Of a stretch of DNA of 64,000 bases, positions 13,572 to 23,199 are shown in pieces (positions within the stretch are counted from its first letter, which is position 1; every line of letters begins with the position of its first letter). A program made the position numbers and the translations under genes. The notes below the pieces were generated by a model. That model saw only the letters and a program-made list of their open reading frames with translations. It was not told the origin of the DNA and ran no database searches. Source of the stretch: Promethearchaeota archaeon (GTDB taxonomy: Archaea; Asgardarchaeota; Lokiarchaeia; Sigyniarchaeales; SOKP01); contig JAHPZJ010000030.1 in the NCBI GenBank assembly GCA_019058245.1, forward strand, positions 128,001 through 192,000, given 5' to 3'.

Positions 13572-14009
13572 TTAGATTCTCATTTTATATAATTCTTTAT
13601 CTGGAATATAACTCATCATAATTAAATCGTCTCGGATTTCCCATCCTAAATTCTGATAAAATTCAACGACATTTTTATTGTATTTTTCGATAAATAAATG
13701 GATTTTATGTACTCGTAATTCACGAAATTTCTCGATTAATGCATCCATTATTTTTTTCCCATATCCCTTTTTTTGATAATCTGGATCTACAGCAAGATGA
13801 TGGACATAACCTCTCCTTCCATCGAACCCTCCAATCACAACGCTAATTATTTTATTGTTAATCTTTCCAATTAAGAAAAGATCAGGATTACGTTGAAGCA
13901 TTTTGTTAATTTCTTCTAATATATCAGAAGAGCCTACATTGATTCCAGCTTTTCTCCAGAGTGCCACAATTTCCTCATAATAATCTATAGTAAATTTTTC
14001 AATCTTCAT
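13572..14009 (-). CDS. GNAT family acetyltransferase (YpeA-like)
   Basis: GGFDGRRGYVHHLAVDPDYQKKGYGK and N..VVEFYQNLGW. Confidence 0.9.
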   Translation of the reverse strand: MKIEKFTIDYYEEIVALWRKAGINVGSSDILEEINKMLQRNPDLFLIGKINNKIISVVIGGFDGRRGYVHHLAVDPDYQKKGYGKKIMDALIEKFRELRVHKIHLFIEKYNKNVVEFYQNLGWEIRDDLIMMSYIPDKELYKMRI

Positions 14010-14204
14010 TTTGAATAATATTGGGTGTTAGTTTTTAGTTAATTTATCAAATTAAATTTATGATTTAAAACATTTTAAAGAAGGTTTTTCACAAAATATT
14101 TGGCAAATAAGAGAATCATCCAAGAAAAAAAAAAATCAACCTTTATTAATTTCTTGAACTATCTTACAATATAACAAATTTAATAAAAAAAACTGGTGTA
14201 ATAA

Positions 14205-15878
14205 ATGAGTGATGATTTAAAAGCAATTAAAGAAATCTCAAAACTTACAGGAAAGGAATTAAAAAAAATTCACGACGATTTTTATGAACGTAATTTAGAT
14301 AATGCTGAATTTGTTTATTATCTTCAAGAAGATAATGTAATATATATAGGTATTAATTTCTATTATTTAGATTTGTCTGAGAAAGATCTACAAAAAGTAT
14401 ATGACTCTGTGAGCAATCTTAAATCTCTAAAGGGTTTAAGTCTTAAATATAAAGTGATTGATAAAGTTCCAGATTTTATTAGAAATTTCAAAGATTTAGA
14501 ATCATTAAACCTTTCGGACAACCATTTAAAATCATTACCTGAATGGATGGGAGAGCTTAAAAATTTGAACATTCTTAATCTAGAATCTAATGAATTAGCA
14601 TCTATACCTGATTGGATGAAGGAACTTAACAACTTATCTCATCTTAATGTGCAAAATAATAATTTGAATTTTTTACCAGAATGGTTAGGAAATTTAGAGA
14701 ATCTAAAAACCTTGAAAGTGGTATTTAATAATCTTGAATGGAATGATATGAGTCTCAATGTATTAAAAAGTGTTTTTAAAAGAGGAGGTACCATATTCGC
14801 ACCAAATATACTTCAGTTTCAAGCAATACATGATCTCCCTAAAGAAAAGATTGAGATCATACGTGAAATTGAAAAAGATACCATTGAAGATGAAAAAAAG
14901 GGTAGGATATCTAGGTTACCAATAAAAGTAGAAGATGGCAAAGTTACGGAGTGGAAATTTGTTGGGTATGGCATTAAATCCTTACCAGAGAATTTTGGAA
15001 TTTTTAATAATCTAAAATCATTGATAATTTCGCGTAATCAAATCGAAGCGTTGCCAGAGTCTTTTGGAGAATTAAAAGATTTAGAGTTTCTCGATTTATC
15101 TAGTAATAAATTAACTACTTTGCCAGAATCTTTTGTTAATTTAACGTCGATTAATAATCTTAATCTTAATAATAACCAATTTATTGAGATCCCTACACAA
15201 TTATGGGCACTTAAAGAACTTACTGATTTAGATTTATCCAACAATCCTCTTAATCCTGAAGAAATGGTTGTTTCACAAAAAGTTCCAGATTTAATTAGAG
15301 AATACCTTAGAGTGAAAGCTACAATAATAGTTTTTATATCTCACGCAGTTCTCGATTTTGAGCCTTATCGCATAGAAGAGCTTGTAAAATACTTGGAAAA
15401 ACAAAAAGAAATATCTCAAGTATTTTTTTGTGAGTCAGATCTTGCTGGTAATATTGATGAGTGGATGCTAAATGCTGTGCAAAAGAGTCAACTAATTTTA
15501 TTTATTGGAACTAATAAATCAGTTTTTAATTCCGTAGATTGTACCAATGAACTGCAACTCGCTGATAAATTCTCTATTCCAGTCATTCCCCTAAAAGGTA
15601 AAGATATAAACTGGCCAGATTTAGCGGATATAAACCTTTCTCGGGAATTAGGATTAGAATATGATATTGATAACTTCGACCAATTTTGCTCTGATGTATA
15701 CAAGTACATAGAAAATTTCAAGCGGGAAATAAACCTAATGGAAAAAGAGGAACGTCGATTAGGTATTATAGATATTTATGAACGATTTCGGTTAATTTTA
15801 GATGATAGTCTAAGTGATATCAAAAGAAAATTGGATGAATTAGAAAAGAGAATTGCTCAACTTGAAACCAAGAATTAA
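14205..15878 (+). CDS. Leucine-rich-repeat protein with C-terminal TIR domain and coiled coil
   Basis: Two blocks of LxxLxLxxNxLxxLP repeats, then VFISHA...IDEWM..AVQKSQLILFIGT..SVFNSVDCTNEL..A..FSIPVIPL (TIR, catalytic Glu position retained), then a heptad tail. Confidence 0.85.
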   Translation: MSDDLKAIKEISKLTGKELKKIHDDFYERNLDNAEFVYYLQEDNVIYIGINFYYLDLSEKDLQKVYDSVSNLKSLKGLSLKYKVIDKVPDFIRNFKDLESLNLSDNHLKSLPEWMGELKNLNILNLESNELASIPDWMKELNNLSHLNVQNNNLNFLPEWLGNLENLKTLKVVFNNLEWNDMSLNVLKSVFKRGGTIFAPNILQFQAIHDLPKEKIEIIREIEKDTIEDEKKGRISRLPIKVEDGKVTEWKFVGYGIKSLPENFGIFNNLKSLIISRNQIEALPESFGELKDLEFLDLSSNKLTTLPESFVNLTSINNLNLNNNQFIEIPTQLWALKELTDLDLSNNPLNPEEMVVSQKVPDLIREYLRVKATIIVFISHAVLDFEPYRIEELVKYLEKQKEISQVFFCESDLAGNIDEWMLNAVQKSQLILFIGTNKSVFNSVDCTNELQLADKFSIPVIPLKGKDINWPDLADINLSRELGLEYDIDNFDQFCSDVYKYIENFKREINLMEKEERRLGIIDIYERFRLILDDSLSDIKRKLDELEKRIAQLETKN

Positions 15879-15925
15879 GTGATTTCTATTATTTTTTTTT
15901 TTGAAATAAATCATTATTAAAATGA

Positions 15926-18013
15926 TCAACTGACAAATTGCATGTCTATTGATAACCTACTTATCCTTTTTCTAATTTCTGTCTTATCCTCTATAATTTT
16001 CTTAATATAACTAGAGATTTCCTTTCTTTTACCCTTATCAGTAGGAATTGGTAAAACTATATCCATGACACGATTTCCTATAGTAGCGATTGTACCTTGT
16101 ACAAATGTAATTGCTTGAATTTGTTTTTGAACTACGTCTAAATTCAATAAATATAGAAGTAAATAAGAATCAATATTTTCTTCATTTTCTATTGCTTTTA
16201 TCTGGAAAATATGACTTTGGATTATTATCTGTGTATCTAACTCAGTAACGTAGGCAGTTTTTCCTATTAAATTAGGACCACCGTCCTTAACCAAAAGTAT
16301 ATCTCCAACTTCAATATTTTGTTTCTCTTTATATTGGTTGTACACTTCTATACTAGTCTTCTTATATGAATCTAGATTTATTTCCCAATTATTTAATTCA
16401 CTTGTCCGAATAAAAGGGATATCACCTAAACCATATACATTTGAACCTATTTCATCTCCTCGCGGGAGATATCTCCCTCTATTTGAATAAATGATATTTT
16501 TATCAATTAGATCTTTTATAGTTAGAAGAATAAAGTTCTGATCATCTGAAAGCTTTTTTAAAGTTTTCTCAACTCCAATATAGTAGAGGGGGATGAAAAC
16601 CTTATTCTTTATTTGACTAAATTTTATTTTAAAGATTTTTTGGTCTTTTAAATGATTAAATTCTTCAGATTCTTTTATTTTTATATATAATTTTGAAAGA
16701 TCGTCATTAACTATTGGATTTCCAATAGAATCTAATTTATAGCTTCCATCTTTATTCAATTTGTATAGAACTTTTCCATCTTTATCGTGTCCAACGTTTT
16801 CTACAATTGCAAAATCAATTATGTAATCTTCTGGAATTTGATTTAATTTTTGAAAAAATAGAATACTTGTTTTGTTACATGTGTAAGGTTGGAATGTATT
16901 TTGATCTAAGGAAATTATCCCTAGAATTTTGCCATGAGAAGTTAAAAATTCCCATATATAGCGATCTGTTATGTTTCCAAATATCCCTTCTGGTAAAACA
17001 ATCCCCAGTTTACCACCATTCTTGAGTAATTGAACACATCTTTCAATAAATAAAATTTGGGGAGGTTGTTGCTTTACTAGGTTTTTTTGCATTTCCCATT
17101 TATCATTGATGTTTTTCCAAACATGTGCTAATTGATAATTCTTTAAAATATTTTTATCAGTTATAGGGATTTTAACTCCAAACGGAGGATTAGTAAAGAT
17201 ATAATCAAAACCATCATTCTTTATCAATTCCTTTGCTGGAGATCTATAACTTTTTGGATCTAATGAGTCTTCGCAAAATATTTTTGCTTTTCCATTACTT
17301 AGTATTTCTAAATATAATTTACTTATTTTAGCTAAAAAAAGATCCTTATCAATGCCATATAAATTCGAAATATAGTCAATTCTTTTTTCCTTCGATTTTA
17401 TATTTGACCAGATAAGATCTTTAGTTTCAAGAAGAAAACCACCATGACCACAGGCAGGATCTAAAACTTTTGATTCATAAGGAGGATTTAAATAATTAAC
17501 CATGAAATTTACGACATTGGGAGGTGTAAAAAACTGTCCTCCCTCATCTTTTAAGATTTTGCTAACAAAAATTTCGAACGCATCACTTAAAATATCTTTA
17601 GATGATCGAAGAAGTGAAATCTCCTGTAATTCTTTAACAACCATATAAACAAGTTCTTTTGTTAACGTTATTTGCTCATTTTGATTCATAACATCGTTAA
17701 ATTTTTCTCTTACATTCTCATTGAAAAAAATTTCAATTCTTTTAAGTAAGTCTTGATTAGATTCTCCAACTTTTAAGCAAAATTCTACTTCCTCTTCATC
17801 TTCTTTAGACATTTCATCAACTAATTTACAAAGTAAGAGATTTACTATTTGCTTGGATCTAGCTCTAGTATCTGTATCGGTATATTTTAATTTTCCATAT
17901 AGATGCTGATTAATTGATGTAAATACCTGTTTTAAATTAGTTGTTTTCTTTAAATCTTTTTTCCTTATAATACTAGATTTTTTCTCTAAAAAATTAGTAA
18001 TATTAATTGGCAT
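15926..18013 (-). CDS. N6-adenine DNA methyltransferase fused to an HsdS-like target recognition domain
   Basis: GQFFTP, VLDPACGHGGFL (motif I), IFTNPPF (motif IV), GIVLPEG. C-terminal IPFIRTS...GDILLVKDG...IGK TRD. Confidence 0.9.
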   Translation of the reverse strand: MPINITNFLEKKSSIIRKKDLKKTTNLKQVFTSINQHLYGKLKYTDTDTRARSKQIVNLLLCKLVDEMSKEDEEEVEFCLKVGESNQDLLKRIEIFFNENVREKFNDVMNQNEQITLTKELVYMVVKELQEISLLRSSKDILSDAFEIFVSKILKDEGGQFFTPPNVVNFMVNYLNPPYESKVLDPACGHGGFLLETKDLIWSNIKSKEKRIDYISNLYGIDKDLFLAKISKLYLEILSNGKAKIFCEDSLDPKSYRSPAKELIKNDGFDYIFTNPPFGVKIPITDKNILKNYQLAHVWKNINDKWEMQKNLVKQQPPQILFIERCVQLLKNGGKLGIVLPEGIFGNITDRYIWEFLTSHGKILGIISLDQNTFQPYTCNKTSILFFQKLNQIPEDYIIDFAIVENVGHDKDGKVLYKLNKDGSYKLDSIGNPIVNDDLSKLYIKIKESEEFNHLKDQKIFKIKFSQIKNKVFIPLYYIGVEKTLKKLSDDQNFILLTIKDLIDKNIIYSNRGRYLPRGDEIGSNVYGLGDIPFIRTSELNNWEINLDSYKKTSIEVYNQYKEKQNIEVGDILLVKDGGPNLIGKTAYVTELDTQIIIQSHIFQIKAIENEENIDSYLLLYLLNLDVVQKQIQAITFVQGTIATIGNRVMDIVLPIPTDKGKRKEISSYIKKIIEDKTEIRKRISRLSIDMQFVS

Positions 18014-21184: not shown

Positions 21185-21724
21185 TTGAGTGAAATGGCAC
21201 GTCCATATCAAAAAGCTAACATCCCAGGCCCTGAAATGGGTACTTCTGTCTCAGATCCGATAGTAATGGCTAATTTACTTAAAACACCTAAGAAGGCTAT
21301 TTTCGTTATTGGTGCTGAATCATTAACTTGGGAACTTGATGGCAAAAAACTTGCAGATTATTTTATAGAAATTGCAAACAAAATTGACTGTCATGTAGTG
21401 TCTACAGGACATGCATATAGTTATCTAAAAGATAAAATCACTGATAATAAATTATATGATATGTCCTTGATAAATATTACAAACCGTTTATCCGATAAAG
21501 ATTGGGCAGGATTAGATGGAGAAGGACAATATTCAATGGCCATATTTGGGGGACATATAGTATTTTATGTATCTCAAACATTGTCAAGGCTTAAAAATTT
21601 TACAAATTGGTTAAGAACAATTGATTTAGATAAATATTCTCATCCAAATGCTAGATTTAGTTTACCAAATCTAAGCGAAGAAGATTGGAAAAGATTTCTA
21701 GAAAATTTGATTAAAAATTTATAA
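21185..21724 (+). CDS. cdhB: CODH/acetyl-CoA synthase complex epsilon subunit
   Basis: PYQKANIPGP, WAGLDGEGQY, LSRLKNF, HPNARFSLPNL. Confidence 0.92.
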   Translation: MSEMARPYQKANIPGPEMGTSVSDPIVMANLLKTPKKAIFVIGAESLTWELDGKKLADYFIEIANKIDCHVVSTGHAYSYLKDKITDNKLYDMSLINITNRLSDKDWAGLDGEGQYSMAIFGGHIVFYVSQTLSRLKNFTNWLRTIDLDKYSHPNARFSLPNLSEEDWKRFLENLIKNL

Positions 21725-21759
21725 ATATAATAAAGAAAAAATGTGAGGAGATTTAATAT

Positions 21760-23199
21760 ATGAGTTTTAGTGACATTCCTGTAGATGTTGGACCTGTATA
21801 CGAAGGTGAACGTATTAGAGGTAATCAGATGTACGTCGAACTTGGGGGTCCAAAAATAGAAAAACATTTTGAGCTTGTAAGAGTGAAAGCAGAAAAAGAA
21901 ATTGAGGATGGAAAAGTTACTCTTATCGGTCCAGATATAAAAGATATGGAATTAGGTTCTAGACATCCAATCGGTATTTTAGTTGAAGTAGCTGGCCCTG
22001 AGCTTGAGGAGGACCTAGAAGCCGTATTTGAGCGAAGGGTTCATGAGTTCTGCAATTTCGTGAATGGAATTATGCATTTGAACCAAAGGTATACGAACTG
22101 GATGAGGCTTTCTAAAACAGCTGTTGAAAAAGGATTTAATTCTTTTCAACTGCTTGGAACTGTCTTAATTAGATTGTATAAAGCTGAACTACCAATTATA
22201 AAAAAAGCTCAAGTCACCATCTATACTGATCCGAAAAAAATAGAAGAGCCTTATGAAATGGCAATGAAGATTTACGAGAAACGGGATGAAAGAGCTCGTA
22301 GTATAAATGATGAAGATGTAGATATGTTCTATGGCTGTGTTTTGTGTCAGAGTTTTGCTCCAACTCATGCTTGTTGTATTACACCAAATCGAATGAGTTT
22401 ATGTGGCTCCATTTCATGGTTTGATGCCAGAGCTGCAGCACGTGTAGACCCAAAGGGGCCTCTTTATGAAGTACCTCCTGGTGAAACAATAAATGAATTA
22501 GCAGGTGAATTTTCTGGAGTTAATGAAATGATTAAAAAACGTTCACTAGGAGAGATCGATAGAATTTATCTTTATTCTGGAATGGAGTTCCCTCATACTA
22601 GTTGTGGTTGTTTTGAAGCAATTGACTTCTTTCTTCCTGAAACTGGTGCGGGTCACGGAATTATTGATCGAAATTTTGATGGGGTCGCTATTAATGGTCT
22701 TCCTTTTAGTGCAATGGCTAATCAGACTGGTGGAGGAAAACAAATGCCAGGGTTTAATGGTATAAGTATACAATACATTACATCACCCAAATATCAAAAG
22801 TATGATGGAATTAAAGCAGGACTTAAGTCAGGAATTTACACCATAGTATGGATGGGTAAAGGTGTTAAAGAACGAGTTTATGAATACCTTCCAGAAGACT
22901 TACGAGATAAAATTGCAACTGAAGAAGAAGTTTCTGATTTAAGTGAATTACCGGCATGGTTAGAAAATGTTGGGCATCCAATTGTAGAAACTGAGGAATA
23001 TAAAGTTGCAGTAGGTGGAATAGAGGAAGAAGAGGAGGAATGGGAAGAAGAAGGCGCTATGGTTCCTATGGGAACTGTTGGAATGACTATTCCTGGAGTT
23101 GGTGGAGCGGGTGGATTTAAAGTAATCTTAAAGAATTGCAAAATTCATGCTGAATCAATAACAATTAAAAAAATTGAACCTAAACGAAAGAAAAAATAA
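21760..23199 (+). CDS. cdhC: Acetyl-CoA synthase (ACDS beta subunit)
   Basis: VGPVYEGERIR, FYGCVLCQSFAPTH, SLCG, PHTSCGCFE, followed by an acidic linker and the ILKNCKIHAE tail. Confidence 0.96.
   Translation: MSFSDIPVDVGPVYEGERIRGNQMYVELGGPKIEKHFELVRVKAEKEIEDGKVTLIGPDIKDMELGSRHPIGILVEVAGPELEEDLEAVFERRVHEFCNFVNGIMHLNQRYTNWMRLSKTAVEKGFNSFQLLGTVLIRLYKAELPIIKKAQVTIYTDPKKIEEPYEMAMKIYEKRDERARSINDEDVDMFYGCVLCQSFAPTHACCITPNRMSLCGSISWFDARAAARVDPKGPLYEVPPGETINELAGEFSGVNEMIKKRSLGEIDRIYLYSGMEFPHTSCGCFEAIDFFLPETGAGHGIIDRNFDGVAINGLPFSAMANQTGGGKQMPGFNGISIQYITSPKYQKYDGIKAGLKSGIYTIVWMGKGVKERVYEYLPEDLRDKIATEEEVSDLSELPAWLENVGHPIVETEEYKVAVGGIEEEEEEWEEEGAMVPMGTVGMTIPGVGGAGGFKVILKNCKIHAESITIKKIEPKRKKK

What the first reader, a model, noticed from the sequence alone, without database searches (positions are those of the whole stretch)
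14205..15878. Soluble LRR-TIR protein with Toll-like-receptor domain order
Seen: two LRR blocks separated by a non-LRR island, followed directly by a TIR domain (VFISHA; SVDCTNEL with the Glu at the NADase catalytic position) and a coiled-coil tail. No TM helix, Roc-COR or NB-ARC domain intervenes. Known: LRR-then-TIR is the TLR order, and TIR domains with this Glu cleave NAD+ in Thoeris, SARM1 and plant TNLs. Inference: a single-chain pattern-recognition immune receptor in an Asgard archaeon.
Basis: partly seen in the sequence, partly recalled or inferred. Interest (0 to 1): 0.8.

Follow-up and report, generated by a model that had tools for sequence, protein, structure and literature searches.

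The report
Asgard archaeal LRR-TIR sensor enzyme
This Lokiarchaeia-type archaeon encodes a soluble protein with a variable leucine-rich-repeat binding surface joined directly to a well-conserved TIR domain of the NAD-cleaving type; it belongs to a large family that no searched paper describes, and it resembles animal Toll-like receptors in domain order but not in membrane layout or, as far as tested, ancestry.

Summary
The 557-aa ORF has two LRR blocks, a TIR fold (Pfam TIR_2 above cut-off on the isolated segment; best structural matches RPS4, TIR-1, SARM1), Glu449 invariant in 120 homologues, a helical tail, and no TM helix or P-loop. Corrections: (1) it is not a TLR; its LRR cap is the Roco-type hinge and I found no special TLR affinity. 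(2) The WxxxE Trp is Asp445, which predicts plain NAD+ hydrolysis rather than cADPR isomers. (3) Neighbourhoods are housekeeping, so defence association is weak. Additions: this is one member of a large TIR clade found only in Promethearchaeia (about 92 LRR-TIR clusters, plus membrane-receptor forms), patchy among relatives (19/54 genomes of the genus), repeatedly lost or exchanged, with variable concave LRR faces. Some members carry integrated GTPase domains. A paralogous live/dead TIR pair sits beside nadA and nicotinamidase-family genes. Best reading: an LRR-gated NADase sensor, probably of foreign or perturbed proteins (0.45); non-immune signalling is a close rival (0.3). Nothing is tested experimentally. 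Bacterial LRR+TIR clusters also exist. The scan noted this family before in other genomes.

The parts
14205..15878 (+). LRR-TIR-coiled-coil gene, 557 aa (P0001)
   Evidence: 135 homologues
14205..14390 (+). N-terminal cap (helix plus beta-hairpin), res 1-62; same kind of cap starts other LRR proteins of this lineage
14391..14744 (+). LRR block 1, res 63-180, five repeats; most variable part, repeat number differs among homologues
14745..14972 (+). Non-LRR segment, res 181-256: helical C-cap of block 1, then a probable second N-cap
   Evidence: weak profile match
14973..15248 (+). LRR block 2, res 257-348
15249..15320 (+). Hinge helices, res 349-372, colinear with the LRR-to-Roc linker of an LRR-Roc protein
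   Evidence: ungapped, 37% identity over 99 residues to P0281
15321..15728 (+). TIR domain, res 373-508; the most conserved part
15537..15539 (+). Asp445 at the position of the WxxxE tryptophan
   Evidence: invariant in 120 homologues; never Trp in 150 clusters
15549..15551 (+). Glu449, predicted catalytic glutamate
   Evidence: 120/120; 148/150 clusters
15729..15875 (+). C-terminal long helix / predicted coiled coil, res 509-557
13572..14009 (-). GNAT acetyltransferase, left flank of the variable site (context, not part of the system)
15926..18013 (-). N6 DNA methyltransferase with specificity domain, right flank; near-core in the genus, so not a defence-island marker

Best explanation
A cytoplasmic one-chain sensor-enzyme. 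The LRR solenoids bind a protein ligand on their variable concave faces (inferred). Binding clusters or releases the TIR domains, which self-associate, perhaps helped by the C-terminal helix (inferred from how characterised TIR NADases work). Glu449 then cleaves NAD+ to nicotinamide and mostly linear ADP-ribose, not cADPR isomers (predicted from Glu present, Trp absent). The output is NAD+ drain or an ADPR/nicotinamide signal. The most likely trigger is a foreign or tampered protein (virus, mobile element, epibiont), so it would work like a minimal intracellular immune receptor without an NTPase switch. Shown: anatomy, fold, conserved residues, variation pattern, distribution. Inferred: ligand, activation, catalysis, immune role.
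For: TIR fold and invariant Glu. TIR is under strong constraint (entropy 0.58 bits; pN/pS 0.18) while LRR concave positions are more variable than convex non-consensus positions (2.45 vs 1.73 bits, nominal p about 1e-5, kin not independent). About 92 LRR-TIR clusters at 50% identity among the best 150 hits, with widely differing LRR counts. Patchy presence: 19/54 genomes of the genus, 57/135 of the family, 1-7 copies; 6 changes on a marker tree. The site is filled in 9 and empty in 21 of 30 genomes. dS to two relatives is about 0.1 and 0.2-0.4 against 0.55-0.70 for both flanking genes, pointing to recent exchange. A live/dead TIR pair occurs in 11 genomes, and some members carry intact or degenerate GTPase domains in front of the LRRs, both recalling paired NLRs and integrated decoys (my knowledge). 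The pair sits beside nadA and a nicotinamidase-family gene in 10 loci, and beside an extra nicotinamidase in 3 genomes; that gene is in 21/135 genomes, 19 of which hold the TIR clade.
Against: No PADLOC model matches the protein. Neighbours are housekeeping or metabolic; the few PADLOC hits among 128 neighbours are mostly to generic enzyme families. No adjacent effector. No site class has pN/pS above 1 (pS is near saturation), and in block 1 the convex positions are not lower than the concave ones in the 17-gene set (0.82 vs 0.68). The same site is used in a second genus, so this is an old resident gene, not a fresh island. The Glu does not guarantee activity (PMC7075850; bioRxiv 10.64898/2026.04.20.719644). 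The NAD-gene link concerns a paralogue; many genomes of genus g20 carry this orthologue without it, and the tree-aware test is not significant (p 0.125-0.25).
Confidence: 0.45

Rival explanations
1. Non-immune intracellular signalling. The LRRs bind a host protein (small GTPase, longin/roadblock or similar) and the TIR turns that into an NAD-derived signal or tunes NAD+ levels, as the soluble arm of a lineage-specific TIR network that also has membrane receptors.
For: The same TIR clade carries single-pass ectodomain receptors (beta-propellers) and polytopic membrane domains nested among the LRR forms. Housekeeping neighbourhoods with 5 small GTPases among 128 neighbours. GTPase-LRR-TIR fusions. 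LRRs are of the SHOC2/Roco type. NAD-supply genes beside the paralogue pair.
Against: Missing from about two thirds of near-complete genomes of the genus, repeated loss and exchange, and the concave LRR face is the least conserved surface, which fits a fixed host partner poorly.
Confidence: 0.3
2. The TIR is a non-enzymatic scaffold that recruits other TIR proteins, as in most animal TLR/MyD88 signalling.
For: Some TIRs keep the Glu without activity. The Trp is missing. Several paralogues per genome, including a Glu-less one, could be partners. The TIR surface is unusually conserved.
Against: Glu is kept in 148/150 clusters together with Ser379, His380, Asp445, Cys446, and is lost only with wholesale decay of the pocket in the paired paralogue. 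Many genomes hold a single member.
Confidence: 0.12
3. A Roco derivative that lost Roc-COR and is now of little selective value, drifting in and out.
For: Hinge colinear with an LRR-Roc protein; LRR-Roc-COR is the common prokaryotic Roco layout (PMC11378527); frequent loss.
Against: Strong purifying selection on the TIR, large radiation, open frames without stops in nearly all matches. No COR-A domain in 54 genomes of the genus, control rang. A Roco origin of the LRR-hinge module may still be true as history.
Confidence: 0.05
4. A true forerunner of animal Toll-like receptors, inherited by eukaryotes from Asgard archaea.
For: LRR-before-TIR order; membrane-anchored relatives with TLR topology exist in the clade; Hydra TRR-2 ties among the top structural matches.
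Against: No TM helix, signal peptide or Cys cap. Plant and SARM1-type TIRs match as well or better. The clade was found only in the host's class and in none of 190 genomes of 25 other families drawn from the phylum. None of the membrane forms examined has an LRR ectodomain. LRR-TIR or Ig-TIR pairing arose more than once even in animals (PMC2858798).
Confidence: 0.03

Closest known systems
Animal Toll-like receptors
   Same: LRR solenoid N-terminal to a TIR domain; sensor-plus-signalling layout; some TLR TIRs also keep an active Glu (bioRxiv 10.64898/2026.04.20.719644).
   Different: No signal peptide, TM helix or Cys-rich cap; LRRs and TIR are in the same compartment; bacterial/SHOC2-type 23-aa repeats; no special TIR similarity.
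Plant TIR-NLRs (RPS4, RPP1, ROQ1) and the RPS4/RRS1 pair
   Same: Cytoplasmic LRR sensor plus TIR with the alphaC Glu; best structural match (Z 14.4); paired live/dead paralogues and integrated domains occur in this family too.
   Different: Reverse order, no NB-ARC switch, WxxxE Trp replaced by Asp.
Prokaryotic TIR NADases: SPARTA TIR-APAZ, AbTir/TcpC, Thoeris ThsB; animal SARM1
   Same: TIR fold and catalytic Glu; top Foldseek hit is SPARTA; AbTir is regulated by a coiled coil (bioRxiv 10.64898/2026.10.06.757174).
   Different: Sensor is an LRR solenoid; coiled coil is C-terminal; no Argonaute, ThsA or other effector adjacent; not in defence islands.
Prokaryotic Roco proteins (LRR-Roc-COR)
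   Same: LRR type and the LRR-to-next-domain hinge.
   Different: No Roc GTPase or COR; the TIR starts where Roc would.
Uncharacterised bacterial LRR+TIR_2 clusters (Bacteroidota, Bacillota, Chloroflexota; ESM Atlas)
   Same: LRR and TIR_2 in one 309-640 aa protein with no Roc or NB-ARC family listed.
   Different: Domain order and relationship not determined; they were not among the named hits of the searches with this TIR, so probably a separate TIR lineage.

Membership tests
TIR domain | Five-stranded parallel sheet with flanking helices; Pfam TIR-clan match | tested here: met
   TIR_2 31.9 bits, cut-off 28; Foldseek and VIA-align top hits are TIRs
Enzymatic TIR NADases | Glu on helix alphaC between strands C and D | tested here: met
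   Glu449 on helix 444-455, invariant; position as in PMC7075850. Equivalence rests on motif spacing and secondary structure, not a residue-level superposition
Enzymatic TIR NADases | NAD+ cleavage dependent on the Glu and on TIR self-association | not testable with these tools
   needs biochemistry
cADPR-isomer-producing TIRs | Aromatic residue four positions before the Glu (WxxxE) | tested here: not met
   Asp445, invariant; no aromatic W/Y/F in 150 clusters; requirement from bioRxiv 10.1101/2022.05.07.491051
Toll-like receptors | N-terminal LRRs, C-terminal TIR | tested here: met
Toll-like receptors | Signal peptide and single TM helix between LRRs and TIR | tested here: not met
   best hydropathy 1.32; highest in 120 homologues 1.65; charged N-terminus
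Toll-like receptors | Cys-rich LRR C-cap | tested here: not met
   no Cys before res 409; cap is Roco-like
Toll-like receptors | TIR within the animal TLR/IL-1R clade | tested here: inconclusive
   no tree with TLR sequences could be built; structural scores do not favour TLRs
NLRs (plant TNL, bacterial NACHT/Avs) | NB-ARC/NACHT STAND NTPase | tested here: not met
   no P-loop in 120 homologues; no Pfam match
Roco proteins | Roc-COR tandem after the LRRs | tested here: not met
   absent from the protein; COR-A found in 0 of 54 genomes of the genus, control rang
Roco proteins | LRR C-cap/hinge leading into the next domain | tested here: met
   ungapped alignment to LRR-Roc protein P0281; one comparison only
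Thoeris | ThsB TIR next to a ThsA-type effector (SIR2-SLOG, TM-Macro etc.) | tested here: not met
   flanks are GNAT and a methyltransferase; no PADLOC match for this protein; no recurrent effector in 24 neighbourhoods. An effector elsewhere in the 76%-complete genome is not excluded
Anti-viral defence systems in general | Protection against infection | not testable with these tools
   needs a challenge experiment

The most novel reading that the evidence does not exclude
Promethearchaeia independently built a repertoire of innate-immune receptors on one NAD-cleaving TIR clade: soluble LRR-TIR sensors with diversifying binding faces (this gene), sensor/executor pairs, decoy-like integrated GTPases and surface receptors with TLR topology, linked to nicotinamide metabolism. 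It would be a prokaryotic parallel to the NLR and TLR systems of plants and animals, working without an NTPase switch.
Probability: 0.3. Interest if true: 0.85.

Novelty: new variant of a known kind. Interest (0 to 1): 0.6.

Why it matters
Surveys of Asgard defence rely on known system models, and this protein matches none of them; the most recent Asgard defensome paper never mentions LRRs (PMC13700489). If the family is an LRR-gated NADase, it shows that LRR recognition can be wired straight to a TIR enzyme without a membrane or NTPase, in archaea related to eukaryotes, and that receptor-style immunity or signalling was assembled there independently. It is directly testable: one soluble protein, one point mutant, one predicted product profile. 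It does not show that TLRs came from Asgard archaea.

Tried and rejected
Complex prediction on two copies of res 355-557 with NAD gave no answer (score 0.02); not used as evidence. No RNA holder was listed for the stretch; no evidence on expression. A contig joint skipping 14148-15881 in run X7 would be an empty allele in the same sediment, but only 22 letters support one side; not relied on. Sequence searches of the TIR against the PDB found no TIR. No match in phages or plasmids. STALD/SLOG search of the own genome found nothing but no control rang. Rejected: the adjacent methyltransferase as a defence-island sign (48/54 genomes). Rejected: a recent insertion at this site, since a second genus has it there too. 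Rejected: formal positive selection. The TIR tree is a quick tree on 138 columns with many open forks. The domain order of the bacterial LRR+TIR clusters could not be retrieved. Nine literature searches found no paper on this family (one search was for the Trp rule); subscription papers are not covered.

Full report
1. Observation. The ORF at 14205-15878 (+) encodes 557 aa. It has an N-cap, five LRRs (63-180), a non-LRR segment (181-256), four to five more LRRs (257-348), two hinge helices (349-372), a TIR domain (373-508) and a long C-terminal helix (mean pLDDT 87.6). Pfam misses the TIR in the whole protein but finds it above cut-off in the isolated segment, and in 16 of 19 family members at some level. 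A model of the C-terminal part (pLDDT 67.5) matches TIR domains first in both structure searches: SPARTA, MyD88, ROQ1 and SARM1 in Foldseek; RPS4 Z 14.4, TIR-1 13.5, RPP1 13.3, Hydra TRR-2 13.3, SARM1 13.2 in VIA-align. There is no TM helix and no P-loop in the protein or 120 homologues.

2. Active site. Glu449 lies on the helix after strand C, the place of the catalytic Glu (PMC7075850), and is invariant in 120 homologues with Ser379, His380, Asp445 and Cys446. It is kept in 148 of the 150 best 50%-identity clusters. Four residues before it, where AbTir has Trp204, the family has Asp (or Ala/Pro), never Trp. All cyclase TIRs examined by Manik et al. have an aromatic residue there (bioRxiv 10.1101/2022.05.07.491051). 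The prediction is NAD+ hydrolysis to nicotinamide and linear ADPR. The Glu alone does not prove activity.

3. Family. Named homologues are Promethearchaeota/Lokiarchaeia. A profile of the TIR finds the clade in 27/54 genomes of the family and 2/5 of a sister family in a phylum-wide draw, and in none of 190 genomes of 25 further families; other orders of the class have members. It is in 19/54 genomes of the genus and 57/135 of the family, with 1-7 copies. The own genome has four members plus one more distant TIR. Among the 150 best clusters about 92 are soluble LRR-TIR, about 20 are ectodomain-TM-TIR (LVIVD, WD40 or other beta-propellers) and about 10 are polytopic TM-TIR. The membrane forms fall in at least two groups among the LRR forms on a poorly resolved tree. 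None of those examined has an LRR ectodomain. Some soluble members carry an N-terminal small GTPase, intact in P0261 and degenerate in P0328 and P0330. ESM Atlas lists bacterial clusters of 309-640 aa with both LRR and TIR_2, so the domain pairing is not unique to Asgard archaea; their order is unknown.

4. Variation. The TIR is the most conserved part (entropy 0.58 bits) and block 1 and the caps the least (1.8-2.2). Within repeats, the concave variable positions exceed the convex ones (2.45 vs 1.73 bits). In 17 genes pN/pS is 0.18 for the TIR, 0.56 and 0.68 for concave sites, 0.44 and 0.82 for convex sites; none exceeds 1 and pS is near saturation. So the binding face is relaxed or diversifying; positive selection is not shown.

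5. Context. The gene sits between a GNAT gene and a methyltransferase, on the opposite strand. The methyltransferase is near-core (48/54). The site is filled in 9 and empty in 21 of 30 genomes, is also used in a second genus, and two relatives have a second LRR-TIR in tandem. Presence needs 6 changes on a methyltransferase tree. Synonymous distance to two relatives is well below that of both flanking genes, though some other nearby genes are also low in one comparison. This is an old accessory gene that is repeatedly lost and sometimes exchanged. Neighbours of 24 family loci are metabolic or housekeeping; there is no defence island and no adjacent effector.

6. NAD link through a paralogue. 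On contig C20 a 794-aa LRR-TIR with a decayed pocket (no FISH motif, Ile for Glu) overlaps an 800-aa LRR-TIR with an intact pocket. The pair is in 11 genomes of the genus. It is flanked by a WD40-TM gene, a nicotinamidase-family gene whose catalytic Cys appears replaced, and nadA; three genomes add a second true nicotinamidase. The altered nicotinamidase-family gene is in 21/135 genomes, 19 with the TIR clade. Twelve of 15 genomes with the window's orthologue have it, but the tree-aware test is not significant and genus g20 mostly has the orthologue without it. This supports NAD+ chemistry for the clade, not a required partner for this gene. The lead came from an earlier scan note and was checked here.

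7. Origin. The hinge aligns without gaps to the LRR-to-Roc linker of an LRR-Roc protein, and the TIR starts where Roc would. No COR domain was found in 54 genomes of the genus. The LRR-hinge module is therefore Roco-like, but deletion of Roc-COR is not demonstrated. The likeness to TLRs is best read as convergence.

8. Mechanism and verdict. Most likely the LRRs bind a protein ligand and thereby switch on TIR assembly and NAD+ cleavage. I put enzymatic activity at about 0.75 and an anti-invader role at about 0.5, giving 0.45 for the combined reading, 0.3 for non-immune signalling, 0.12 for a scaffold, 0.05 for a relic and 0.03 for TLR ancestry. No searched paper describes the family. It works like a sensor-TIR receptor, fails membership of TLRs, NLRs, Roco and Thoeris, and is scored as a new variant of a known kind, interest 0.6. 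The scan's first readers noted the same protein type in other genomes; those notes are not independent support.

Noticed in passing
L001:4422-14527 (own genome, contig C20): Cluster nadA, altered nicotinamidase-family gene, WD40-TM gene, Glu-less LRR-TIR, intact LRR-TIR, extra nicotinamidase; the core recurs in about 10 genomes; G018 and G064 keep the left half without the TIR pair.
   Followed up: partly
window:15926-18013: Single-chain N6 methyltransferase with a fused specificity domain and no nuclease next to it, present in 48/54 genomes of the genus at 68-85% identity: looks like a conserved orphan methyltransferase, usually upstream of the GNAT gene.
   Followed up: partly
P0184, P0197, P0207, P0222, P0241, P0262, P0269, P0188; L090:6004-13600, L091:3100-10000: Single-pass receptors (signal peptide, beta-propeller ectodomain, TM, TIR of this clade) and polytopic TM-TIR genes, some in tandem arrays of three next to a NUDIX-domain gene; one subgroup shares a distinct tail of about 100 aa.
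   Followed up: partly
P0261, P0328, P0330, P0130, P0125: LRR-TIR members with an extra N-terminal domain: an intact small GTPase, degenerate GTPases, or a possible longin/roadblock-like domain (by eye).
   Followed up: partly
L064, L061 (between methyltransferase and GNAT): In some genomes lacking the LRR-TIR, the same site holds a short coiled-coil ORF resembling the N-terminus of a proteasome ATPase (by eye), so the site takes different cargo.
   Followed up: no
L003:6969-7718 (own genome, contig C13): Stand-alone TIR_2 protein of another clade (VPVKKEW motif); the stop-to-stop frame is 312 aa but the first start gives 249 aa.
   Followed up: no
G000:C4:28419-28778, C20:56160-56543, C19:78584-78943: Three large proteins (821, 846, 1832 aa) with a SIR2_2 domain, possible NADase effectors; one is about 20 kb from the TIR pair.
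   Followed up: no
L004:6233-7966, L005:6750-7694, L006:6630-8768, L007:6518-7243: Four LRR-only proteins in the own genome, some with the same N-cap and no effector domain; possible stand-alone sensors.
   Followed up: no
P0122, P0157, P0165, P0121, P0227: Proteins with two LRR-TIR units in one chain, or with three to four tandem TIR domains.
   Followed up: no
window:5967-13073 and 21185-23199: Complete-looking histidine operon and acetyl-CoA decarbonylase/synthase genes flank the region: ordinary core context.
   Followed up: no
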